DNA of 64,000 nt from Candidatus Nanoarchaeia archaeon (lineage in GTDB: Bacteria; Patescibacteriota; Microgenomatia; Woykebacterales; RBG-16-39-9b), in NCBI GenBank assembly GCA_036514715.1, contig DATBWR010000016.1, positions 42,368 through 106,367 of the forward strand, written 5' to 3'. The position numbers and the translations under genes are program-made. The notes under the pieces were generated by a model. That model ran no database searches. It saw only the letters and a program-made list of their open reading frames with translations, and had not been told where the DNA came from. Positions 21,587-49,026 of the stretch are shown here, one piece after another (position 1 is the first letter of the stretch; each line of letters opens with the position of its first letter).

Positions 21587-21620
21587 AGCTACTGTCCCAA
21601 TTGTCTTGAACCTATAGTTG

Positions 21621-21649
21621 TTGACTTTTCCTAAATTTAGTGCTATAAT
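21621..21649 (+). promoter_or_regulatory. Near-consensus sigma70 promoter (TTGACT-17-TATAAT) driving the GC-rich island gene
   Basis: TTGACT at 21621-21626, 17-nt spacer, TATAAT at 21644-21649. An AAGGAGG RBS at 21663-21669 and a GTG at 21678 follow. Confidence 0.6.
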
Positions 21650-21677
21650 TTTCGCCAAAAGTAAGGAGGGAGAAACG

Positions 21678-22676
21678 GTGGTCGTGTCAAACTCAGAAGA
21701 GGGCCTTCTTGATCGAATCGTTAGGATCGCTTTTGAGGAAACGGCGCCGGAAATCCACGCTTTAGTGGTCCACCGTTTCCCCGATGACGATGCATGGCTC
21801 AGCACCTGGATAGCCAGGAAGTTCATTCCCAGGGCAGCCAACGCCCAACTCGTTTTCGTGAGGTCGGGGGAAAAACTGCCTGGAACCGAAGATGATCCGC
21901 ATGTGCTCCACTTCGATACCGGAGGGGGCGAATACGACCAGCACAACAGGAGCCTGGAAAAAACCTGCAGTGCTGTTCTTCTGGCCAACAGGTTAGGGGT
22001 TCAGAATGACCCAGGTCTAACCGAGCTACTCAAGATGGCGACCGATGTGGACAACGTCAGGAAGCTGCCTCCGACCAGCATTCACTACGCTATCGAAGGC
22101 TACGCCCGGCTCTTCCAAAAGGAAAACGAAGTTGCCTGGGAAAAGGTTCAGGAGCGGGTGTTTGAGCTCTTCAACATTGTCTACGGACAAGAAGCCCAAC
22201 GAGCTCGAGGAAAAAACGATCTAGAGAAATTCGGGCGGTGGACACAGCACCCTAACGGTGCCAAGGTTTGCTTTCTTCCCTATCACCCAAACACTCGCGA
22301 AGCTGCTTTCGCAGCGGGAGCAACTGTGGTGATTTGGACTGAAGCTTGCAAAGCGCCTTTCAGGGGTCGGGTCCAGATCGGTATTCAACGTAGCCGTGAC
22401 CACGAGTACCTCAAACTGAGGAGTGTGGCCTGGTCGCTGCGGAAAGCTGAGGCCTTGCAACGCACCCTTCAGCTGGGTGAGCAAGAGCTGGGGGCGGTGG
22501 GAGAAGATTCCAACACTCATTGGTTCCTACACGACAGCTTGGGCTTTGTTTGCAACGGCAGCCGCACTCACCCGCTGGAGAGAGAAGAAGAGTTTAGTTT
22601 GCTCAGTCTGAATCAGGTTCTAAATCTGGTAAACCGCGAGGTAGCTTCAATGTCGCTTGCTCCTGCAGGCAGATAA
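21678..22676 (+). CDS. Divergent DHH-superfamily phosphoesterase-like protein (NrnA-like motif HRFPDDDAWLS...YDQH); GC-elevated foreign-looking gene
   Basis: Start assigned to the GTG 8 nt after the AAGGAGG RBS; the ORF track extends it to a TTG at 21618. Motif II resembles the NrnA H-x-x-PDxDAxGS motif. Rough hand counts give 53-58% GC. Confidence 0.35.
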   Translation: MVVSNSEEGLLDRIVRIAFEETAPEIHALVVHRFPDDDAWLSTWIARKFIPRAANAQLVFVRSGEKLPGTEDDPHVLHFDTGGGEYDQHNRSLEKTCSAVLLANRLGVQNDPGLTELLKMATDVDNVRKLPPTSIHYAIEGYARLFQKENEVAWEKVQERVFELFNIVYGQEAQRARGKNDLEKFGRWTQHPNGAKVCFLPYHPNTREAAFAAGATVVIWTEACKAPFRGRVQIGIQRSRDHEYLKLRSVAWSLRKAEALQRTLQLGEQELGAVGEDSNTHWFLHDSLGFVCNGSRTHPLEREEEFSLLSLNQVLNLVNREVASMSLAPAGR

Positions 22677-22761
22677 GGAGGCTTCGGTCAGAGGAGTGAA
22701 AATCCACAAGATTTTCGCCCCTTCTTTATTTTCAAATTCTTCCCTCTCTTAAATTAAAAGC

Positions 22762-22790
22762 AAAAAATCCATCTCTTTTTGAGATGGAAA
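22762..22790. terminator. Bidirectional hairpin terminator between convergent island genes
   Basis: AAAAAAT CCATCTC TTTTT GAGATGG AAAG. Confidence 0.5.
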
Positions 22791-22903
22791 GTGTTGGGAA
22801 GGTTTTTTGCAACCAGACTCGTTTTCGAGTACTTCCCCTGATTCTTATTCTATTTTTGGAGTTCCTTGCGTCAGTAATGTTCGCCGATCACCCTCTGTCC
22901 TTT

Positions 22904-23791
22904 CTAGCTGTAGCGACCGGGCCCGCGGTTGCTCTTCCTGCTATTGCGCGGTGCCCCTCGCTTCTCGATCCTCTTTTTGCTTCGCGGAGTTGGTTCCGAC
23001 GGAACGTACTCGACTACCTGATGGTCTGCGAGAAGCCGCACCATTTCCTCAGCCGCACCATCAAGCGGGTCTGACGCTGCAGATTGGTGACCGTCGCAGG
23101 TAACCTGACCGTTAGCAACGGACAAGCCACCACGGTGAGGTGTGCCCCGAACAGGACAGCAGTAGTGTCCTTGGCAAACCACACCGCCTTCCACCACCCT
23201 TAGGTTCCCCCAGTGCTTCTCTGGTGAGTTCACTACGAGGCAGGATGGAGCGGGTGTGTTTGCGGGGTTATGACCCTCGCAGTGCCACCTACCGTTCACC
23301 TTCACGAGCTTCGCACCAGAGTGAGGCGTGCCGTTCTGAACCACACAGCGAACGCTTGTGGTCACCCGAGCCTTGACTCCGGAAACGATGCCGCTCTGTG
23401 GATCCGAGGCTTTTTTGGTTGCCTTGAACCCTTTTCGGCAGCGGTCGCAATACGGATTTTCACCTTCGGCGACTGGCTTCGTCACGCGCTCACACGTAGC
23501 GAAGTTGGTACAGTCGACATAACCCCTACTTCTGAGCTTCTGCACATAGCAGGAACCGCAGTAAGGGTCTAACCCTGTCCGTAGTTTCGTCAAGCGTTTG
23601 CACTTGGCGTAGTTGACACACTCAACGTACCCCTGCTTCCTCAGCTCCTCTTCGAAGCATGGTTGGCAAAGGGGACCGTTGGGATCGGCGGGGTTCTTGC
23701 CGCACTTGGAGCACATCTTTTCGCTTGGAGTCTCGGCTGAGACAGCCTCGCTCACCTTGGTTGTTTTTGCGCTTGACTTATGTGCTGCCAC
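22904..23791 (-). CDS. Cysteine-rich protein with internal repeats (3x CxxC...GYV[ED]C.N[YF]A.C and 2x GTPHxG...NG...C[ED]GH) and a basic C-terminal tail; function unknown
   Basis: 295 aa. GTG start with an AAGGAGGG RBS. GC-elevated. The repeats are visible in the translation. Confidence 0.6.
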   Translation of the reverse strand: MAAHKSSAKTTKVSEAVSAETPSEKMCSKCGKNPADPNGPLCQPCFEEELRKQGYVECVNYAKCKRLTKLRTGLDPYCGSCYVQKLRSRGYVDCTNFATCERVTKPVAEGENPYCDRCRKGFKATKKASDPQSGIVSGVKARVTTSVRCVVQNGTPHSGAKLVKVNGRWHCEGHNPANTPAPSCLVVNSPEKHWGNLRVVEGGVVCQGHYCCPVRGTPHRGGLSVANGQVTCDGHQSAASDPLDGAAEEMVRLLADHQVVEYVPSEPTPRSKKRIEKRGAPRNSRKSNRGPGRYS

Positions 23792-41460: not shown

Positions 41461-42336
41461 CTAAGAGCCTTTTATTTCATTCAAATAATTTTTTAAATCG
41501 TCTGCCAAATCGTCCCTGCGGAGCGCAAACTCAATATTAGCTTCAATAAACCCAAGCTTATTGCCAATATCGTAATAACGGCCATTTTCGATTAATACCG
41601 TGTAAACAGGCTCGTTCTTAACCATTTCTCCAATTGCTTCCGGCAGCCAGAGCTCCCCGCCCTTACCTGGCTTGAGGTTATCCAAATATTTCCAAATGCT
41701 GGGCGCTAGAACGTAAGCCCCGTGAGTAGCAATATCAGAGGGGGCTTCATTGGCGGGGGGTTTTTCAACAATTGCCTCAATTTGATAAACATTGCCTTCC
41801 ACTTGCTTGACCGCGGCAATGCCGTACTTACTTAGGTCTTCCTTCTTAATAATTTTTACTCCACTAATTACACTGTGGCCGTACTTGTCATAAACGTCGA
41901 GAAGTTGTTTCAGGCGAGGCGGCTGGGCATAAATAAACTCATCTCCCCAAATTACGGCAAAGGGTTCGTCGCGAACCAAATGTTTAGCCGTAATTACCGG
42001 GGTGGCGTTACCGTAGTTGCCTTTTTGACGAACGTAGATGAAGTTAGCCATTTCGGCAATTTCGCGAATTTCACTAGCTTTATCCTCTTTACCTGACGCT
42101 TTCAAAAAGTTTTCCAACTCCAAACTGCGATCAAAGTGATCTTCAATTGCCCGTTTGCCACTACCAGTAACAATAATGATGTCAGTTATCCCAGAACCAA
42201 CTACTTCCTCAACCACGTATTGGATAACCGGCTTATCCACAATCGGCAACATTTCTTTGGGCATTGCTTTAGTAGCCGGCAGAAAGCGGGTCCCAAAACC
42301 AGCTGCGGGAATAATTGCCTTAGTTACCTTAGTCAT
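41461..42336 (-). CDS. galU: UTP-glucose-1-phosphate uridylyltransferase
   Basis: KAIIPAAGFGTRFLPATKAMPKEMLPIVDKP signature. Confidence 0.92.
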   Translation of the reverse strand: MTKVTKAIIPAAGFGTRFLPATKAMPKEMLPIVDKPVIQYVVEEVVGSGITDIIIVTGSGKRAIEDHFDRSLELENFLKASGKEDKASEIREIAEMANFIYVRQKGNYGNATPVITAKHLVRDEPFAVIWGDEFIYAQPPRLKQLLDVYDKYGHSVISGVKIIKKEDLSKYGIAAVKQVEGNVYQIEAIVEKPPANEAPSDIATHGAYVLAPSIWKYLDNLKPGKGGELWLPEAIGEMVKNEPVYTVLIENGRYYDIGNKLGFIEANIEFALRRDDLADDLKNYLNEIKGS

Positions 42337-42410: not shown

Positions 42411-42980
42411 TTGCTTAAGAACACTTTTCAAAGAGTCGGTGTTTTTATTGATATCCAAAATCTTTACTATTCAGCCAAAAATCTCTACAGTGCTAAAGTA
42501 AATTTTGGAAAAATTTTGGAAACTGCAGTTGCTGGCCGGCAACTAATTCGTGCCTTTGCTTACGTCATACGGGCTGATATTCCCGAAGAGCAACCTTTTT
42601 TCGATGCTCTTACCAAGAGTGGTTTCGAAGTTAAAGCTAAAGATATTCAAATTTTTCCCGGGGGAGTGAAAAAGGGTGATTGGGACGTGGGAATTGTCAC
42701 GGATATGATCCGTCTTGGTCCAAAGCTTGATGTGATGATTTTGGTTTCCGGTGACGGGGACTATGTGCCGGCGCTTGAATATTTGCGCAACCAAGGACAT
42801 CTAATCGAGGTAATTGCTTTTGGTAAAAGTACTTCAGCCAAACTAATTACCGAAGCTGATGAATTTACAGATTTAGATCAAGAAGCGCAGAAATACTTAA
42901 TTCGAACCTATAGAAACCAACCAAGACGAGCCTACCACCGTAACCCCAACCGGGAAAAAACTAATTTAGAGGAACTGTAA
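42411..42980 (+). CDS. NYN-domain (LabA-like) protein
   Basis: VGVFIDIQNLYYS...DVMILVSGDGDY NYN/PIN-like acidic motifs. Confidence 0.7.
   Translation: MLKNTFQRVGVFIDIQNLYYSAKNLYSAKVNFGKILETAVAGRQLIRAFAYVIRADIPEEQPFFDALTKSGFEVKAKDIQIFPGGVKKGDWDVGIVTDMIRLGPKLDVMILVSGDGDYVPALEYLRNQGHLIEVIAFGKSTSAKLITEADEFTDLDQEAQKYLIRTYRNQPRRAYHRNPNREKTNLEEL
42942..42980 (+). repeat. Direct repeat copy 1 (gene 3' end; att-like)
   Basis: AACCCCAACCGGGAAAAAACTAATTTAGAGGAACTGTAA. Matches 43628-43666 at 37 of 39 positions. Confidence 0.8.
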
Positions 42981-43073
42981 CTTGTTGTTGCATGAGATGC
43001 TTATAGGATTGGTTAAATCTAATTATTGACTATAGGTCTGCTCTCTGCTGTGGTTTTTGTCGCTTAATTACTA

Positions 43074-43364
43074 TTGTGCGACGTTTCGAATCGTGCCGAT
43101 ATTGAAGTGGATATTGGGCGGGCGAATCTCTCAAGTCTTGTGCAATATGTTAGAATGCACACAATGGATAACTCAGTTTCTAGTCAAATCGGCTACCTGC
43201 TAGCGGTCGGGGGCCTAGTTGTCATTCCCTTAGGTATTTTGGTTTCGGCTTCAGCAGCGTTATTTGCGATCGCGACTCACAAACGAAGGTTGTGGCCATA
43301 TGTTAAATGGCCGCTCCTAGTGACGATCGGACTCACCCTTCTTTACACGCTAGCCATCGGCTAG
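43074..43364 (+). CDS. Small 2-TM hypothetical protein inside the repeat-bounded insert
   Basis: 96-aa ORF with hydrophobic helices. Uncertain. Confidence 0.3.
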   Translation: MCDVSNRADIEVDIGRANLSSLVQYVRMHTMDNSVSSQIGYLLAVGGLVVIPLGILVSASAALFAIATHKRRLWPYVKWPLLVTIGLTLLYTLAIG

Positions 43365-43627
43365 TTATCTTCGGCAAGCGGACCAGCCGCCGGCCGCTAT
43401 GACCCCGCAAGCGACAAAGACTTTCTTCGTCTCATTGGGCTCTTTCCAGATAGTAGTGTGATCGTCTGTCATTCTGCTTGGGAACCGATTTTTGGCGACA
43501 CGGTTAGAGCTTCGAAAATAGTAGATAGGATTAAAGAACGGCGTGCTGAAATTGTTATCGATGGTGACTCGTATAGAGTTAGGGATAAACTTCTAGTCTC
43601 TTAGATTAGTGTAGAAACGTCTACTGC

Positions 43628-43666
43628 AACCCCAACCGGGAAAAAGCTAATTTAGAGGAACTATAA
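43628..43666 (+). repeat. Direct repeat copy 2 (displaced original gene 3' end, in frame ...NPNREKANLEEL*)
   Basis: AACCCCAACCGGGAAAAAGCTAATTTAGAGGAACTATAA, followed by a terminator. Confidence 0.8.
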
Positions 43667-43680
43667 ATTGGAATAGAAAT

Positions 43681-43702
43681 GGATCCCTTCGGGTTCCTTT
43701 TT
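43681..43702 (+). terminator. Rho-independent terminator following repeat copy 2
   Basis: GGATCCC-TTC-GGGTTCC stem with one T-T mismatch, followed by TTTTT. Confidence 0.5.
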
Positions 43703-43720
43703 ACTACAAGAAAATAGTGA

Positions 43721-43769
43721 AGCCCGCCCCGCATTGAGTTGACATTGAAGTCTTCTCGCGGGGCGGGCT
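43721..43769. other. 12-bp GC-only-clamped perfect hairpin (AGCCCGCCCCGC...GCGGGGCGGGCT, 25-nt loop) at the start of a GC-rich noncoding stretch (43.7-44.1 kb)
   Basis: Seen directly. No ORF of 60 aa or more in the region. Confidence 0.5.
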
Positions 43770-44167
43770 CTTGCGTAGTCTCAATTAAAGTCGAGAACTA
43801 CGCGCCGGCGTCGAAGGGTCGGCTGGCTCAGCTACCCGGGACGGCGCCGAAGTCGAGGTCGACGATGGACGTACAGGCGATTTGCTTTATGCTCGTGATC
43901 TTGCCCGGGTCCAAATGAAACCCCTTTCCTGAAAGCTTTGTTGTCCCATGACGACAAAGCACTTACCGATAGCAAACATTCTAGCATAGCCGTCAATTCT
44001 TGTCAACCACTATAGGATCCTCGTATTTACTATCTCCTACCGGAGATTAAATACTGTGGATCCTGCGCTCCAGCAATAGTCTAACGACATTAATCCAAAG
44101 GACGCAAAGCGCGCAGCGATTTATTTCGCTGGAAGCTTAGGCCCCTTGACTATGTTAAAATTGGCTG

Positions 44168-45151
44168 GTGAAGATTTTAGGTATTGAAACTAGTTGTGAT
44201 GAGACTGCTGTCGCAGTGGTCGAAGACGGAGTAAAAATTCTCTCCAATGTGGTAGCTTCTTCGCTGCCTTTACATGCAAAAACCGGTGGTATAATTCCGG
44301 AAACTGCTGCCCGCGAACAGCTCCGTTTGATGATCCCAACTGTTGAAAAAGCTTTGCTGGAAAGCAAGTTAAAACCGCAAGATTTAGATGCTATTGCGGT
44401 AACACAAGGACCCGGTCTTCTAGGTTCCTTGTTAATCGGTGTCGAAACTGCTAAAACTCTTTCCTTTGTTTGGAATAAACCTTTAGTACCCATAAATCAC
44501 CTTGTCGGTCATGTTTACGCTAATTGGCTGGAAAACCCCTCTCCTCCTAAATTTCCTAATCTAACTTTGATCGTCTCCGGAGGCCACTCAGAGCTGGTCA
44601 TAGCAGGCAACCACGGCGATTTTGAATGGCTTGGTGGCACTCGAGACGATGCGGCCGGAGAAGCTTTTGATAAAACCGCCAGAGTTTTGGGACTTACCTA
44701 CCCAGGAGGTCCGGCAATTCAGAAAGCTGCTGCGAGCCACAAACATATCGATAACTCTTTGCCCAGACCTTTACACGACAGCGGCGATTTTGATTTCTCC
44801 TTCAGCGGGCTTAAAACTGCAGTGGTCAATAAAGCTAGTAATAAGAGGTTTTCTGATCAAGAGACTGCTGATTTTGCCGCCAGTATCCAAGAGGCGATTG
44901 TTGATTCACTACTTAACAAAACCCTTAAGGCCGCTAAAAAATATAATGTTAAAGAGTTGCTGCTGGCTGGAGGTGTAGCTGCCAATGCGCGATTAACCGA
45001 GAAGGCGAGGGAAAGCTTCTCCGGAAAAGTGCACGTTGCTCCACCCAAATTATGCGTGGACAACGGGGCCATGATCGCTGCCGCTGCCTTTTTTAACTAC
45101 AAACCGGTTCCCTGGCAAGACGTACAAGCTGACAGCGGCCTTTTCTTTTAG
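44168..45151 (+). CDS. tsaD: tRNA N6-adenosine threonylcarbamoyltransferase TsaD (Kae1/YgjD)
   Basis: KILGIETSCDETAVAVV start (GTG) and TsaD motifs. Confidence 0.92.
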   Translation: MKILGIETSCDETAVAVVEDGVKILSNVVASSLPLHAKTGGIIPETAAREQLRLMIPTVEKALLESKLKPQDLDAIAVTQGPGLLGSLLIGVETAKTLSFVWNKPLVPINHLVGHVYANWLENPSPPKFPNLTLIVSGGHSELVIAGNHGDFEWLGGTRDDAAGEAFDKTARVLGLTYPGGPAIQKAAASHKHIDNSLPRPLHDSGDFDFSFSGLKTAVVNKASNKRFSDQETADFAASIQEAIVDSLLNKTLKAAKKYNVKELLLAGGVAANARLTEKARESFSGKVHVAPPKLCVDNGAMIAAAAFFNYKPVPWQDVQADSGLFF

Positions 45152-45183
45152 CTTGTTTAGAACTCAGGTTTTGGTATAATCGC

Positions 45184-47274
45184 TTGCGCATGGATAAAGT
45201 TTACGAACACAAAAATATTGAGGAAAAATGGTACTCTTTTTGGGAAAAAGAGGGTTTTTTTAAACCTAGTTCTTCCAAGAAAACTTTCACGATCATCCTC
45301 CCCCCACCTAATGCCAACGGCCGGCTGCATATTGGCCACGCTATGTATGTGATTGAGGACATTATGGCCCGTTACCATCGCATGTGTGGTGAAGCAACTC
45401 TCTGGCTACCTGGAGCAGATCATGCTGGCATTCTCACTCAAGTGGTTTACGAACGTGAGCTGGAAAAGCAAGGTAAAACCCGACACGATCTTGGACGAGA
45501 AAAGTTTTACGAAGAAACTTACAAATTTACTCAAGGTAGTAAAAAACAAATGTATGAACAACTCCGAAGAATGGGTTTTTCTCTAGATTGGTCCCGCGAG
45601 AAATTTACTCTAGACCCGAAAATTTCTCAGGCAGTTTATAAAACTTTCAAAATGCTCTACGATGACGAACTTATCTACCGCGGCACGCGGATGATTAACT
45701 GGTGCCCACGTTGCGCCACAGTTTTGTCTGATTTGGAAGTTAATCACGTTGAAAAAGAATCTAACCTCTGGTTTATTAAGTATCCTGTTAAAGACACTGG
45801 ACAATTCATTACCGTTGCCACTACCCGTCCGGAAACTATGCTTGGTGATACTGCCGTGGCAGTTAATCCAGACGATAAGCGCTATAAAAATTTAGTTGGG
45901 AAAACCGTTGTTTTACCACTTACAAACCGAGAAATTCCGATTATTGCCGATAGCTTTGTCGATTCTGAGTTTGGAACTGGAGCGGTTAAAGTTACCCCAG
46001 CCCATGATCCCAATGACTACGAGATCGGTGAGCGCCATAAGTTAGAAAGTGTCCAAGTGATTGGTTTCGACGACAAAATGACTAAGGAGGCAGGAAAATA
46101 CTCCGAATTGGATAAATACACTGCTCGCAAACAAATTGTCTCCGACTTAGAAAAACAGGGCCTTTTGGATAAAACTGAGCGTCATAAAAGCAGCATTGGG
46201 GTTTGTGAACGCTGCGGCACTGTGGTCGAACCACAAATCTCCAAGCAGTGGTTTGTAGCAGTTAATAAAACTGGTAAATCTGGTAAGAATTTAGCTAAAG
46301 ATGCTCTCAAAGCTGTCGCAGAAAAACAGATAAAAATCATCCCCGAGAGATTTGAAAAGATTTACTACAATTGGATGGAAGATTTGCATGATTGGTGCAT
46401 ATCGAGGCAGCTGTGGTGGGGTCAGCAAATTCCCGTTTGGTACAAAGGTGAGGAAATTCATGTTGGCGAAGATTCGCCCGGTGAGGGTTGGCACCAAGAC
46501 CCAGATACTCTGGATACTTGGTTTTCCTCCGGTCAATGGCCTTACACAACTCTAGGCTGGGGACAAAAGGATGATAGTGATTTCAAGCGTTTTTACCCAA
46601 CTACAGTCATGGAAACCGGCTACGATATTCTCTTTTTCTGGGTAGCCCGCATGATCATGCTTGGAATTTACTCTACTGACAAAGTACCTTTTGAAAATGT
46701 TTATTTACACGGTTTAGTTCGTGACGAAAAGGGTCAGAAAATGAGTAAAAGTAAAAACAACGTTATTGACCCACTGGTAGTTGCCGATCAATACGGGGCG
46801 GATGCGGTCCGCATAGCACTAGTTTTTGGAACGGGGGCAGGTAATGATGCCAATATTGGCGAAAGTAAAATAAAAGGTATGCGCAATTTTACTAACAAAC
46901 TCTGGAACATCGGTCGCTATATTATTGATATGAAACCGGAAAAAGTTCGCGCAAAAGCTGAGATGAATAAGGATGATAAATTGATTCTGGAAGAACTAGC
47001 TAAAACCCGCAAAATAGTAACTGAAGCTATTGAAAACTACAGGTTTGGCCAAGCAGCTGAAGAGCTCTACGAGTTTGTTTGGCATAAGTTTGCTGACAAG
47101 TACATAGAGATGAGTAAAAACCGCCGTAGTGAGGCTCAGGCGACCTTAGAGAAGGTCTTTGAAGAAAGCTTGTGCTTGCTTCATCCCTTCATGCCGTTTA
47201 TAACTGAGGAGTTATGGCAGAAATTACCCCACGAAGGGTCTTCAATCATGATTAGTACATGGCCGGGAAAGTAA
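45184..47274 (+). CDS. valS: Valyl-tRNA synthetase, short form lacking the C-terminal extension
   Basis: PPPNANGRLHIGHA (HIGH), KMSKSKNN, an editing-domain-sized insertion. Ends shortly after FITEELWQKL. Confidence 0.85.
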   Translation: MRMDKVYEHKNIEEKWYSFWEKEGFFKPSSSKKTFTIILPPPNANGRLHIGHAMYVIEDIMARYHRMCGEATLWLPGADHAGILTQVVYERELEKQGKTRHDLGREKFYEETYKFTQGSKKQMYEQLRRMGFSLDWSREKFTLDPKISQAVYKTFKMLYDDELIYRGTRMINWCPRCATVLSDLEVNHVEKESNLWFIKYPVKDTGQFITVATTRPETMLGDTAVAVNPDDKRYKNLVGKTVVLPLTNREIPIIADSFVDSEFGTGAVKVTPAHDPNDYEIGERHKLESVQVIGFDDKMTKEAGKYSELDKYTARKQIVSDLEKQGLLDKTERHKSSIGVCERCGTVVEPQISKQWFVAVNKTGKSGKNLAKDALKAVAEKQIKIIPERFEKIYYNWMEDLHDWCISRQLWWGQQIPVWYKGEEIHVGEDSPGEGWHQDPDTLDTWFSSGQWPYTTLGWGQKDDSDFKRFYPTTVMETGYDILFFWVARMIMLGIYSTDKVPFENVYLHGLVRDEKGQKMSKSKNNVIDPLVVADQYGADAVRIALVFGTGAGNDANIGESKIKGMRNFTNKLWNIGRYIIDMKPEKVRAKAEMNKDDKLILEELAKTRKIVTEAIENYRFGQAAEELYEFVWHKFADKYIEMSKNRRSEAQATLEKVFEESLCLLHPFMPFITEELWQKLPHEGSSIMISTWPGK

Positions 47275-47300
47275 ATATCCGAAGTTACAGAATGCTTTAG

Positions 47301-47390
47301 CTGTCTATAACTGAGGATCTCTGGCAAAAACTTCCCAACAAACAAGGCGAATCGATCGTGGTTTCCGAATGGCCTAAAGCTCAAGGATAA
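47301..47390 (+). pseudogene. Orphan diverged duplicate of the valS 3' end (LSITEDLWQKLPNKQGESIVVSEWPKAQG*), no start codon
   Basis: Aligns at the protein level to the valS C-terminus ITEELWQKLPHEGSSIMISTWPGK*. An in-frame TAG lies immediately upstream. Confidence 0.7.
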
Positions 47391-47803
47391 AGCTTCAAAA
47401 ACTCGTCGGGTGTCACGATTTTAATCCCTCGAAACTCTTTCAATTCCAGTAACCCTTTGTCGCCAGTCACAATAAAATCGACCTTTCCTTCAACTGCTGC
47501 CTCTAAAACTCGGTTATCATCTTGATCTTCAAGAACAGCGATCTGCTCTCTTGGGTTAAGTACTACAGCATTTTTACGTATTAAATTTAAAGACTTGTCA
47601 ATCTTCTGGTCGTAAAAACCGAATTTTTTAACTAAAACGTCTGCAAGCTCCGCTAGCAAAACTTCTGAAGTGAGGGCTTGAACTTCTTTACTAAGAACTT
47701 TTTGGAAAATAGTGCCGGGCTTACCAGCGAAAATTACAGCGGAGATAAAAATATTGGTGTCGAGTACAACGCGTAATTTTTTAACGGCCGTGGCGGTATT
47801 CAT
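47381..47803 (-). CDS. PIN-domain toxin (VapC-like)
   Basis: VVLDTNIFIS...acidic PIN residues. 140 aa. Overlaps the upstream RHH gene. Confidence 0.75.
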   Translation of the reverse strand: MNTATAVKKLRVVLDTNIFISAVIFAGKPGTIFQKVLSKEVQALTSEVLLAELADVLVKKFGFYDQKIDKSLNLIRKNAVVLNPREQIAVLEDQDDNRVLEAAVEGKVDFIVTGDKGLLELKEFRGIKIVTPDEFLKLYP

Positions 47804-48023
47804 GCACTAAGCGGTTAACGTCTTCCTCGGATTTTATTCCCATTTTCTTGGCAACCTCGCGACCATATTCTCTGAGACTTTGCCACTCTTCCATATTTTC
47901 GATGTAACGTCTTGTTACCTCACGGATTAACTCACTGCGGCTACGTGCTTCAGTTTCGGCTTGCTTATCAATTTTTTCTAAAAGGCTTTTAGGAATGGAG
48001 ATGTTAATTGTCTGGGTTTTCAT
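47781..48023 (-). CDS. Ribbon-helix-helix (CopG/VapB-like) antitoxin
   Basis: 80-aa RHH-like N-terminus (INISIPKSLLEKIDK). 23-bp overlap with the PIN gene. Confidence 0.7.
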   Translation of the reverse strand: MKTQTINISIPKSLLEKIDKQAETEARSRSELIREVTRRYIENMEEWQSLREYGREVAKKMGIKSEEDVNRLVHEYRHGR

Positions 48024-48261
48024 ACAAAGATTGTATGTTTTATGTATAAGTTTGTCAATGATTTAGCCAACAAAAAACAACCCTTCGCGTTAAGCTTCGC
48101 GGTACAAGAAAGGCACCTGGTAACTGGCTTCAAATGTGTTTCTTCAGGGCATCCGCCAGCTGGCGGACATTGCAATGACAGTTATAACTACATTCAACTC
48201 CAGTTACTAAGTGCCTTTAGAGTTTCCAGTAACTTTTTAAATTGTTAACAATGGTATTATA

Positions 48262-49026
48262 TCAAACTATAGGTTTCTTGTCAAGTTCGGTGTCTTTATT
48301 CTTGGGTTTTTCGGCTGGAGTTTCAGGGGCTTTCTCACCCTCTTCTTTGGCTTCCCCACCTTCTTTGGTAGCCTCGCCTTCAGCTGTCGCTTCGCCTTCA
48401 GCTTCACCTTTTTCAGCAGTAGCTTCAACTTCTTCAGGAGAGACTTCTGGTTCAGGCTCTTCTTCTTTCATTTCCGCAGTTTGCACGCTAACGACCACTT
48501 CTTCCGGGTCGTTTTTAACTTCAACCTTATCCATATCAATCTTAAGGTCCTTGACGTGAACGCTCTGTCCTACCTCAGTCAGTTTATCAGCATCAATTGT
48601 AAAGTGGGCCGGGATATCAGTTGGCAAACATTCCACTTCAACTTCGTTTAAAGTTTGCAAAAGCAGCCCAATACCGCTCTTTTCGGCTGGTGACTGACCT
48701 TCCAAAATTACTGGGACATGAGCAGTAATTTTTTCTTTCAGATTAACTTTGTGAAAATCAACGTGAATAATTTGATCGGTTCTAGGATCACGCTGGAGGT
48801 TGTGGATTAGAGACGGGTAAGTTTCTTTATCGAGTTTGACATCGACCAAAGCGGTTTCGCCAGCTTCCTTAAAGCTCTTTTGGAAGTCTTTGGAGTCAAC
48901 TTGGACGGAAACGGACTTAAAATCTTTGCCAAAAACATTGGCTGGTACTATACCTTCAGCTCGAAGTTTTTTAACTTTTTTACCCACAACTTGCCGGGGT
49001 TCGACTTTAATAGCAACGCGTTCCAT
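48262..49026 (-). CDS. rplY: 50S ribosomal protein L25 / general stress protein Ctc, with an acidic low-complexity C-terminal tail
   Basis: L25 beta-barrel N-terminal region plus an E/A/G/K-rich tail. Confidence 0.8.
   Translation of the reverse strand: MERVAIKVEPRQVVGKKVKKLRAEGIVPANVFGKDFKSVSVQVDSKDFQKSFKEAGETALVDVKLDKETYPSLIHNLQRDPRTDQIIHVDFHKVNLKEKITAHVPVILEGQSPAEKSGIGLLLQTLNEVEVECLPTDIPAHFTIDADKLTEVGQSVHVKDLKIDMDKVEVKNDPEEVVVSVQTAEMKEEEPEPEVSPEEVEATAEKGEAEGEATAEGEATKEGGEAKEEGEKAPETPAEKPKNKDTELDKKPIV

What the first reader, a model, noticed from the sequence alone, without database searches (positions are those of the whole stretch)
42942..43702. 39-bp direct repeat duplicating the 3' end of the NYN-domain gene around a ~650-bp insert (integration scar)
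The last 39 nt of the NYN gene at 42942-42980 recur at 43628-43666 with 2 mismatches. The second copy keeps the same reading frame (NPNREKANLEEL*) and is followed by a hairpin/T-run terminator. This makes it the displaced original gene end. This pattern is typical of a site-specific integrative element that carries a replacement gene 3' end. The bounded segment is only ~650 bp, with one doubtful 96-aa membrane ORF, so it is probably the remnant of a larger element or a miniature one. No integrase is present.
Basis: seen in the sequence. Interest (0 to 1): 0.6.

Follow-up and report, generated by a model that had tools for sequence, protein, structure and literature searches.

The report
Mobile-DNA insertion scar at NYN gene end
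About 640 bases of decayed mobile DNA sit just after a small nuclease-like (NYN) gene of an uncultivated candidate-phyla-radiation (CPR) bacterium, flanked by two copies of the gene's last 40-48 bases; this is an ordinary insertion scar, and the enzyme that made it cannot be identified.

Summary
The repeat is real. 42942-42980 recurs at 43628-43666 with 2 mismatches, and the similarity extends to 48 nt (42937-42984 vs 43623-43670, 90%). No shuffle of the window reproduces it.

The insertion is derived. About 90 related CPR loci, including the closest (NYN 87, 84, 83, 82, 81% identical), carry one tail copy followed by a GC-rich hairpin. Every contig of this species that reaches past the gene end, from at least eight samples, carries the insert.

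Copy 2 lies next to the native terminator, so it is the displaced gene end. Copy 1 keeps the gene intact.

The insert holds the last ~70 codons of an IS21-type istB gene (43401-43604). Its ends also form an imperfect inverted repeat (17/24, p about 0.001).

No recombinase is present. No related element sits at NYN in other genomes. Both copies share substitutions specific to this lineage, so the "replacement" end is not visibly foreign.

My best reading is Campbell-type integration followed by decay (about 0.45). The rivals are a transposon-like insertion with a long target duplication (0.25) and illegitimate recombination (0.2). Interest is low.

A second, older gene-end duplication lies after valS.

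The parts
42411..42980 (+). NYN-domain (LabA/DUF88-like) gene, 189 aa, intact. Its last 13-16 codons are repeat copy 1.
   Evidence: PF01936 E = 3.7e-34. The tail ...NPNREKTNLEEL aligns with the tails of the closest homologues, e.g. P0006 ...NPNREKTTLEEL.
42937..42984 (+). Direct repeat copy 1 (attL-like): the functional gene end, stop codon and 4 nt beyond. The exact 39-nt core is 42942-42980.
   Evidence: It keeps the base found in the closest relative L144 at both positions where the copies differ (at 42977/43663 L145 has a third base).
42985..43622 (.). Unique inserted DNA, 638 nt. It is absent from all relatives. GC is 0.46 overall and 0.525 at 43200-43500, against 0.434 for the window.
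   Evidence: No DNA or translated similarity in about 90 related loci or elsewhere in the window. GC percentile 0.96.
42982..43005 (+). Left arm of an imperfect inverted repeat at the inner edge of copy 1 (TTGTTGTTGCATGAGATGCTTATA).
   Evidence: I1: 24 nt, 71% complementary. Only 2 of 2000 shuffles of the insert give 17/24 or better near both junctions.
43074..43364 (+). Orphan ORF of 96 aa from TTG, or 66 aa from the ATG at 43164. It has two hydrophobic segments, and a TGnTAGAAT extended -10-like motif lies at 43148-43156. It is doubtful as a gene.
   Evidence: No Pfam or PHROG hit. No homologue outside this organism among 5.8 billion protein clusters.
43401..43604 (+). Remnant of an IS21-family istB (AAA+ helper) gene. 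Only the C-terminal ~70 codons remain, and the 5' side is truncated.
   Evidence: PF01695 IstB_IS21, profile positions 168-236 of 238, E = 1.4e-5. The best real hits of an exhaustive HMMER search are istB proteins (P0130, P0136, P0137), 50-58% identical over the last ~40 aa.
43612..43635 (+). Right arm of the inverted repeat. It starts 8 nt after the istB stop and overlaps copy 2 by 13 nt.
43623..43670 (+). Direct repeat copy 2 (attR-like): the displaced, non-coding relic of the NYN 3' end. The core is 43628-43666.
   Evidence: It differs from copy 1 and from the closest relative L144 at both mismatch positions, an in-frame TAG lies at 43607-43609, and the native downstream context follows.
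43681..43706 (+). Small hairpin plus T-run, the likely original NYN terminator. It now lies 700 nt after the stop codon in use.
   Evidence: No comparable structure follows copy 1 (fold z = -1.4).
43721..43769 (.). Large GC-rich hairpin. In relatives it sits about 10-210 nt after the NYN stop, so it marks the ancestral position of the gene end.
   Evidence: Fold z = -5.6 on the plus strand and -7.6 on the minus strand. Equivalent hairpins follow the NYN stop in L008, L010-L013, L144-L146, L148 and L150.

Best explanation
This is the scar of a mobile-DNA insertion into the extreme 3' end of the NYN gene of a CPR (Patescibacteria, Woykebacteria-like) bacterium.

The most likely mechanism is Campbell-type integration. 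A circular element that shared about 40-48 nt with the gene's end recombined with it. An element-encoded site-specific recombinase is the usual cause of this pattern, although RecA acting on the short homology would give the same product. Integration left one copy of the shared segment on each side of the element:
- The upstream copy (42937-42984) completes the NYN reading frame, so the gene still works.
- The downstream copy (43623-43670) is the displaced original end. It remains next to the native terminator and is now drifting, with changes at both core mismatch positions relative to copy 1 and the closest relative.

Internal deletions then removed the recombinase and nearly all cargo. What remains is 638 nt holding a truncated IS21-type istB fragment and an orphan two-helix ORF. 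The remnant appears immobile and fixed in the sampled population.

Shown: the repeat; its derived status; which copy is the working end and which is the relic; the mobile-element origin of part of the insert; and the absence of a recombinase.
Inferred: the circular intermediate, the type of recombinase, and the later deletions.
For: - The repeat is far beyond chance.
- The synteny groEL-groES-SBP-galU / NYN-(gap)-tsaD-valS is conserved. Every relative has one NYN tail followed by the big hairpin. None of 83 relatives has a tail duplicate.
- Copy 2 is adjacent to the conserved downstream context and a terminator.
- At the first core mismatch copy 1 carries the base shared by L144, L145, L146 and L008; at the second it matches only the closest relative L144, the others differing from one another.
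- Part of the insert is mobile-element debris and it is moderately GC-rich.
- IS21 itself makes 5-bp duplications (PMC10122671), so the istB fragment is passenger debris and not the cause of the repeat.
- The same structure occurs in independent assemblies from at least eight samples, including variant strains, so it is not an assembly artefact and is not recent.
- From general knowledge: a 15-60+ nt direct repeat made of a gene's 3' end around foreign DNA is the usual signature of integrase-mediated islands and prophages. Examples are tRNA-gene islands, and phage 21 and e14 at the E. coli icd gene.
Against: - No integrase or any other recombinase lies in the insert or within about 6 kb.
- No intact relative of the element was found. 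The insert's ORFs have no homologues, and scans of viral contigs found nothing.
- None of the 22 immediate non-core neighbours downstream of NYN in other genomes is a recombinase. NYN is therefore not a habitual attachment site.
- Both repeat copies share synonymous and non-synonymous states specific to this lineage relative to L144 and L145. An element-borne arm would have had to come from this same lineage.
- The ends of the insert form an inverted repeat unlikely to be chance, which Campbell integration does not predict.
- No empty site or excision product was found within the species.
Confidence: 0.45

Rival explanations
1. A non-autonomous, transposon-like element (about 42982-43635, with imperfect terminal inverted repeats, possibly a deletion derivative of an IS) inserted by staggered cuts 30-48 nt apart. 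Gap repair then duplicated the host's own NYN tail, giving a long target-site duplication.
For: - Both copies carry this host lineage's specific substitutions, as expected if both derive from the target itself.
- A terminal inverted repeat of 17/24 sits exactly at the inner edges of the repeat, p about 0.001.
- The istB 3' fragment lies directly inside the right end, as in an IS that has lost its middle.
- The size is typical of a MITE (miniature non-autonomous transposon).
- There is precedent for long, variable duplications of 8-514 bp by IS1634 and IS1549 (PMC2266710).
Against: - The only family identified in the insert, IS21, makes 5-bp duplications.
- The right inverted-repeat arm overlaps the direct repeat by 13 nt, which does not fit a clean TIR-plus-duplication layout.
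- There is no second copy in 64 kb and no transposase.
- Long target duplications are rare.
Confidence: 0.25
2. Illegitimate or homology-facilitated recombination. DNA taken up from a close relative was anchored by homology on one side (within NYN/galU, or within tsaD) and joined illegitimately on the other side, inside the resident NYN tail. Foreign DNA was thereby inserted and the tail duplicated. No mobile-element enzyme was involved.
For: - No recombinase or transposase is present.
- The two tails are near-identical, as expected for a donor from the same lineage.
- The NYN-tsaD and valS-L25 gaps both carry different cargo in different relatives, i.e. they are variable hotspots.
- A second gene-end duplication sits 4.3 kb away at valS. 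Its copies differ mainly at synonymous or conservative positions, which indicates gene ends that evolved in different lineages.
- A strain variant has 9 SNPs clustered in 80 nt of galU, which suggests a recombination tract.
Against: - No lineage with the insert natively downstream of NYN was found among about 90 loci.
- This model does not explain the terminal inverted repeat.
- The valS duplication is ancient and is shared with L148, so it is a weak analogue for a species-specific event.
- From general knowledge, homology-facilitated illegitimate recombination usually deletes recipient DNA and does not duplicate it.
Confidence: 0.2
3. The repeat is a chance similarity or an assembly artefact (a chimeric join or collapsed repeat).
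For: None beyond the small size of the repeat.
Against: - 0 of 100 shuffles reproduce the match, and BLAST gives E = 2.8e-12.
- The arrangement is identical in contigs from at least eight samples built by three pipelines: MEGAHIT/ENA, Logan and JGI.
Confidence: 0.01

Closest known systems
Integrase-mediated islands and prophages that integrate into the 3' end of a gene and restore it (tRNA-gene islands; phage 21 and e14 at E. coli icd). This comparison rests on general knowledge.
   Same: A direct repeat made of the target gene's last tens of bases brackets foreign DNA. The upstream copy keeps the gene intact, and the downstream copy is a displaced relic next to the original downstream sequence.
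   Different: No integrase, excisionase or recognisable cargo is present, and only 638 nt remain. The 'replacement' end is not divergent from the host's. The target, an NYN gene, is not a known attachment site and is not reused in about 83 related genomes.
IS21-family insertion sequences (istA transposase plus istB ATPase)
   Same: The insert ends with the C-terminal ~70 codons of an istB-like gene, placed just inside the right boundary as in IS21 elements.
   Different: There is no istA, and 70% of istB is missing. IS21 makes 5-bp target repeats and has paired terminal repeats ending in a reactive CA (PMC10122671). Here there is no short duplication and the flanking repeat is 39-48 nt.
IS1634/IS1549, which create long, variable-length direct repeats (8-514 bp; PMC2266710)
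   Same: A target duplication of tens of bases flanks an inserted element that has terminal inverted repeats.
   Different: No IS1634-type transposase or any relic of one is present, only one copy was seen, and the inverted repeat overlaps the duplication.
[quoted passage not shown]
   Same: Foreign DNA is inserted without any element-encoded enzyme, next to a region of homology.
   Different: This process usually comes with a deletion and not with a 48-nt duplication. No donor arrangement was found.

Membership tests
Site-specific integrative element (attL/attR scar) | Direct repeats of the target's 3' end flank non-host DNA | tested here: met
   48 nt at 90% identity, with a 39-nt core at 2 mismatches. 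The insert is absent from relatives and contains IS debris.
Site-specific integrative element (attL/attR scar) | A tyrosine or serine recombinase gene lies inside or next to the element | tested here: not met
   Pfam scans of the ORFs found in the six reading frames of the insert give only the IstB fragment. The gene table for about 6 kb on either side lists no recombinase.
Site-specific integrative element (attL/attR scar) | An uninterrupted (empty) site exists in related genomes | tested here: met
   Met between species: L144, L145, L146, L148, L150 and L008-L012 have a single tail followed by the hairpin. Not found within the species.
Site-specific integrative element (attL/attR scar) | The same attachment site is used by related elements in other genomes | tested here: not met
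   No tail duplication in 83 relatives. No recombinase among 22 immediate downstream neighbours.
Site-specific integrative element (attL/attR scar) | The element-borne arm of the att site has its own history, i.e. a foreign replacement end | tested here: inconclusive
   Both copies share lineage-specific states relative to L144 and L145. The segment is short (39-48 nt), so a same-lineage origin of the arm cannot be excluded.
Site-specific integrative element (attL/attR scar) | Excision products exist (a circular junction or a restored site) in read data | not testable with these tools
Only assembled contigs were available.
IS21-family insertion sequence | istA DDE transposase gene | tested here: not met
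   No hit among the ORFs found in the six reading frames of the insert.
IS21-family insertion sequence | istB AAA+ helper gene | tested here: inconclusive
   Only profile positions 168-236 of 238 are present, E = 1.4e-5, just above the Pfam cutoff. Full-length IstB homologues confirm the assignment.
IS21-family insertion sequence | 4-8 bp (typically 5 bp) target duplication | tested here: not met
   No short duplication at any plausible end. The only flanking repeat is 39-48 nt. The IS21 value comes from PMC10122671.
IS21-family insertion sequence | Terminal inverted repeats, each with two transposase-binding repeats, ending in CA | tested here: inconclusive
   There is one 24-nt imperfect inverted repeat. 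Only about 20 nt lie between the istB stop and copy 2, which is too little for a two-repeat end unless it overlaps the gene or the repeat.
MITE / non-autonomous transposon | Terminal inverted repeats at both ends | tested here: inconclusive
   17/24 complementary, p about 0.001 by shuffling. The right arm overlaps the direct repeat.
MITE / non-autonomous transposon | Multiple copies in the genome | tested here: not met
   No second copy in the 64-kb window. The rest of the genome could not be searched.
IS1634/IS1549-type elements with long target repeats | IS1634-family DDE transposase | tested here: not met
   No transposase relic in the insert.

The most novel reading that the evidence does not exclude
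The 650-nt segment is a member of an undescribed kind of small non-autonomous element in CPR bacteria. It would have imperfect terminal inverted repeats and insert at gene 3' ends with a 30-48-nt duplication of the target, so the gene is always preserved. It would be moved in trans by an enzyme encoded elsewhere, either a transposase with an unusually long stagger or a Cas1-like or integrase-like enzyme.
Probability: 0.1. Interest if true: 0.55.

Novelty: new member of a known kind. Interest (0 to 1): 0.25.

Why it matters
The finding matters little on its own. It records one old mobile-element insertion in a candidate-phyla-radiation genome, a group in which integrated elements are poorly catalogued. 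It also shows that the NYN-tsaD and valS-L25 gaps are variable hotspots. If the long-duplication transposon reading were right, it would point to an unrecognised insertion mechanism in these reduced genomes. The 48-mer and the insert ends give concrete probes to test that in complete genomes or in reads.

Tried and rejected
- I suspected a tmRNA or other known RNA gene, a classic integration target, in the GC-rich stretch 43700-43970. ARAGORN and Rfam found nothing. The stretch is instead a minus-strand small-ORF cassette with its own promoter and terminator.
- IS21 transposition as the cause of the repeat: rejected, because IS21 makes 5-bp duplications and no short duplication exists.
- The predicted empty-site junction was searched in the metagenome contig collection: 0 hits. 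The 18-nt core gave 55 hits, all unrelated; the best is a MarR-like gene in L135. That collection does not seem to hold this organism.
- The hypothetical empty-site protein allele (T183A) is absent from 15 billion proteins. The 90% cluster holds only this protein and a variant that differs in its start residue.
- Homologue searches for the istB fragment and for orf96 found only themselves. Scans of viral contigs found nothing.
- Weak tail 'duplicates' in L043 and L036 are Lys-rich low-complexity matches in a different synteny, rpsO-NYN-pnp.
- I considered a single-event model in which the block 43623-47292 (NYN tail to 18 nt past valS) was transferred at once. I rejected it because the two duplications differ greatly in divergence (5-10% vs ~28%) and the valS one is shared with L148.
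- Contig breaks at 44038 coincide with a palindromic hairpin and do not reflect a variant junction. The 742-nt contig L147 is a plain fragment and not a circle.

Full report
**Observation**

The last 39 nt of the NYN gene (42942-42980) recur at 43628-43666 with two mismatches. Without gaps the similarity runs for 48 nt at 90% identity, 42937-42984 vs 43623-43670, spaced 686 nt. A degenerate 39-mer allowing three mismatches finds only these two sites in 64 kb, and finds none in 100 dinucleotide-preserving shuffles. BLAST gives E = 2.8e-12.

Copy 2 translates as NPNREKANLEEL*. It is preceded by an in-frame TAG seven codons upstream and is out of frame with NYN, so it is a fragment. A small hairpin with a T-run follows it (43681-43706).

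**Organism and context**

The window comes from a CPR/Patescibacteria genome. The nearest named relatives are Candidatus Woykebacteria. The order groEL-groES-SBP-galU (minus strand), then NYN, a gap, tsaD and valS (plus strand), is conserved in L008-L012, L014, L038, L145, L148 and L150.

The NYN tail ...EKTxLxEL is ancestral. The closest homologues end in NPNREKTTLEEL (87% identical), NQNREKTTLEEL and PVQEKTSLEEL.

**The insertion is derived**

In relatives the gap between NYN and tsaD is 1-830 nt, against 1187 nt here. In the closest relatives whose DNA could be read (L144 87%, L146 84%, L148 83%, L145 82%, L150 81%, L008 80%), a single NYN tail is followed after about 10-210 nt by a large GC-rich hairpin. 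That hairpin corresponds to window 43721-43769.

None of 83 related loci has a second copy of its NYN tail within 5 kb. The two weak hits are low-complexity matches in a different synteny. No relative has DNA or translated similarity to 42985-43622.

Copy 2 therefore sits where the gene end belongs, and copy 1 plus 638 nt are the addition.

**Fixed within the species**

Sixteen contigs carry the exact NYN protein or its start-residue variant. Every one that could be read past the gene end continues into the insert. They come from at least eight samples and three assembly pipelines.

Variant strains also have it. L005 carries SNPs inside the insert, and L088 carries a 19-nt deletion further downstream.

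The 90% protein cluster holds no other allele, and the predicted empty-site allele (T183A) is absent from the collection. A scan for the predicted empty junction found nothing. The structure is therefore not an assembly artefact, and the event is not recent.

The copies differ by 5-10%. The NYN gene differs from its closest relative by 19% overall and 38% at third codon positions.

**Content of the insert**

- The 48-aa ORF at 43458-43604 and the open frame upstream of it match the C-terminal end of IstB_IS21 (PF01695, profile positions 168-236 of 238, E = 1.4e-5).
- An exhaustive HMMER search of 1.8 billion representatives returns bona fide IstB proteins as the best real hits. They are 50-58% identical over the last ~40 residues.
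- Nothing else in the ORFs of any of the six frames hits Pfam or PHROGs.
- The 96-aa ORF (66 aa from the ATG at 43164) has two hydrophobic stretches and no homologue anywhere.
- GC reaches 0.525 at 43200-43500, against 0.434 for the window (96th percentile).
- There is no recombinase in the insert or within about 6 kb on either side.
- IS21 elements make 5-bp target repeats (PMC10122671). The istB piece is therefore debris carried in the insert and is not what made the 39-48-nt repeat.

**Two features that bear on mechanism**

First, both copies share states that distinguish this lineage from L144 and L145. These are AAC, AAC and CGG against AAT, AAT and AGG/CGT, and the codon AAT (Asn) where relatives have Thr or Ser. 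At the two positions where the copies differ, copy 1 agrees with the closest relative L144; at the first it also agrees with L145, L146 and L008, while at the second the relatives differ from one another. Both copies therefore descend from this lineage's own sequence, and copy 2 has drifted since. The 'replacement' end is not visibly foreign.

Second, the ends of the insert form an imperfect inverted repeat, 42982-43005 vs 43612-43635, 17 of 24. Only 2 of 2000 shuffles of the insert give an equal match anchored near both junctions. The right arm overlaps copy 2 by 13 nt, so this is not a clean layout of terminal repeat plus target duplication.

**Mechanism**

Three processes could give this product.

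(a) Campbell-type integration of a circle that shares the 48-mer, followed by decay. From general knowledge this is by far the commonest source of such scars. It explains why the gene stays intact. It does require losing the recombinase while keeping both att copies, and it requires an element arm derived from this same lineage.

(b) A transposon-like insertion with a 30-48-nt target duplication. This fits the host-derived copies, the inverted repeat, and the istB end lying just inside the right boundary. Long duplications are rare, although IS1634 and IS1549 make repeats of 8-514 bp (PMC2266710). No transposase or second copy is seen.

(c) Illegitimate or homology-facilitated recombination with DNA from a close relative.

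No recombinase was found among 22 immediate neighbours of NYN in other genomes, so NYN is not a recurrent attachment site. I rate (a) at about 0.45, (b) at about 0.25 and (c) at about 0.2.

**A second gene-end duplication nearby**

I scanned all 58 long ORFs of the window for downstream copies of their last 35 residues. Only NYN and valS scored.

The valS tail (about 47186-47274...[24 protein letters not shown]) recurs 18 nt downstream (about 47293-47390...ITEDLWQKLPNKQGESIVVSEWPKAQG*) at about 72% identity. The changes are mostly synonymous or conservative. The second copy abuts a convergent PIN/RHH toxin-antitoxin pair that L011 and L150 lack.

The whole two-tail arrangement is homologous in L148/L149 but absent from L150 and L008-L012. 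It is therefore old and retained. It shows that gene-end duplications next to variable cargo recur in this clade, but it is not a close analogue of the young NYN event.

**Comparison and verdict**

The feature works like the attL/attR scar of an integrative element. It cannot be filed as one, because the defining recombinase and any evidence of site-specific recombination are missing. It contains an IS21 relic but is not an IS21 insertion. It is an ordinary, decayed mobile-DNA insertion that preserved the target gene.

Novelty: a new member of a known kind. Interest: 0.25.

The most novel reading not excluded is a small non-autonomous element that inserts at gene ends with a long target duplication. 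I give it a probability of about 0.1.

Noticed in passing
window 47186-47274 vs 47293-47390; L148 14076-14190: The 3' end of valS is duplicated 18 nt downstream of its stop (about 72% identity, with mostly synonymous or conservative differences and an intact 28-codon frame). The same two-tail arrangement is homologous in L148/L149 but absent from L150 and L008-L012. NYN and valS are the only two of 58 genes in the window with a duplicated tail.
   Followed up: partly
window 47381-48023 (minus strand): A PIN_3 / RHH (HicB-like) toxin-antitoxin pair lies between valS and the L25 gene. The PIN stop overlaps the end of the second valS tail. L011 has no such pair at this site, and L150 has three unrelated small ORFs there. 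The valS-L25 gap is therefore a variable hotspot.
   Followed up: partly
window 43829-43915 (minus strand), promoter 44006..43978, terminator hairpin 43721-43769: A GC-rich (0.60) small ORF, MDPGKITSIKQIACTSIVDLDFGAVPGS, has a near-consensus promoter (TTGACA-17-TAGAAT with a TG extension) and a strong terminator. Small ORFs in the same place start MDPGK/MDPPK in L145 and L144 and differ in L010-L012. The cassette is absent from L009 and L014. Strain L088 has a frameshifting 19-nt deletion (43876-43894) in it.
   Followed up: partly
window about 48100-48250 (minus strand), promoter 48283..48255; L150 14800-14983: A conserved non-coding stretch (71% identity over 202 nt, E = 1.4e-19) lies just downstream of the L25 gene. 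It has a TTGACA-17-TATAAT promoter and a long rod-like hairpin with a few compensatory changes. It has no Rfam match even at E = 10. It is a candidate small RNA of an unknown family.
   Followed up: partly
L013 5777-6142: In this relative (NYN 72% identical), a phage major head protein gene (phrog_334, E = 2.7e-12) lies directly after the NYN terminator hairpin, where tsaD is expected. The contig ends there. It may be a prophage in the same gap.
   Followed up: partly
L038 5611-6198 (minus strand): In this relative the NYN-tsaD gap holds a ~190-aa ORF with an HExxH metalloprotease-like motif in place of the small-ORF cassette. This is another example of variable cargo at this site.
   Followed up: no
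window 21618-23791: This is the most GC-rich part of the window (up to 0.60, against 0.43). It holds a 352-aa ORF and a convergent Cys-rich 295-aa ORF, and may be another foreign island.
   Followed up: no
window 41761-41841 (galU 3' part), strain contig L005: Nine of the 12 differences between this strain contig and the window cluster within 80 nt. This looks like a short recombination tract from a diverged allele.
   Followed up: no
window 44023-44060: A near-perfect palindromic hairpin (GTATTTACTATCTCC TACC GGAGATTAAATAC) lies upstream of the small-ORF promoter. Two independent Logan contigs end in its loop at 44038, which is probably an assembly effect.
   Followed up: no
L148 11439-14075: valS of this relative is 878 aa and has a His_Phos_1 (PF00300) domain inserted in the synthetase. 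The gene here is 696 aa.
   Followed up: no
window 42411-42980 (protein HEY4695224.1): The public record labels this genome bin 'Candidatus Nanoarchaeia archaeon'. All close relatives and the gene content are bacterial (CPR/Patescibacteria), so the label is probably a misclassification.
   Followed up: no
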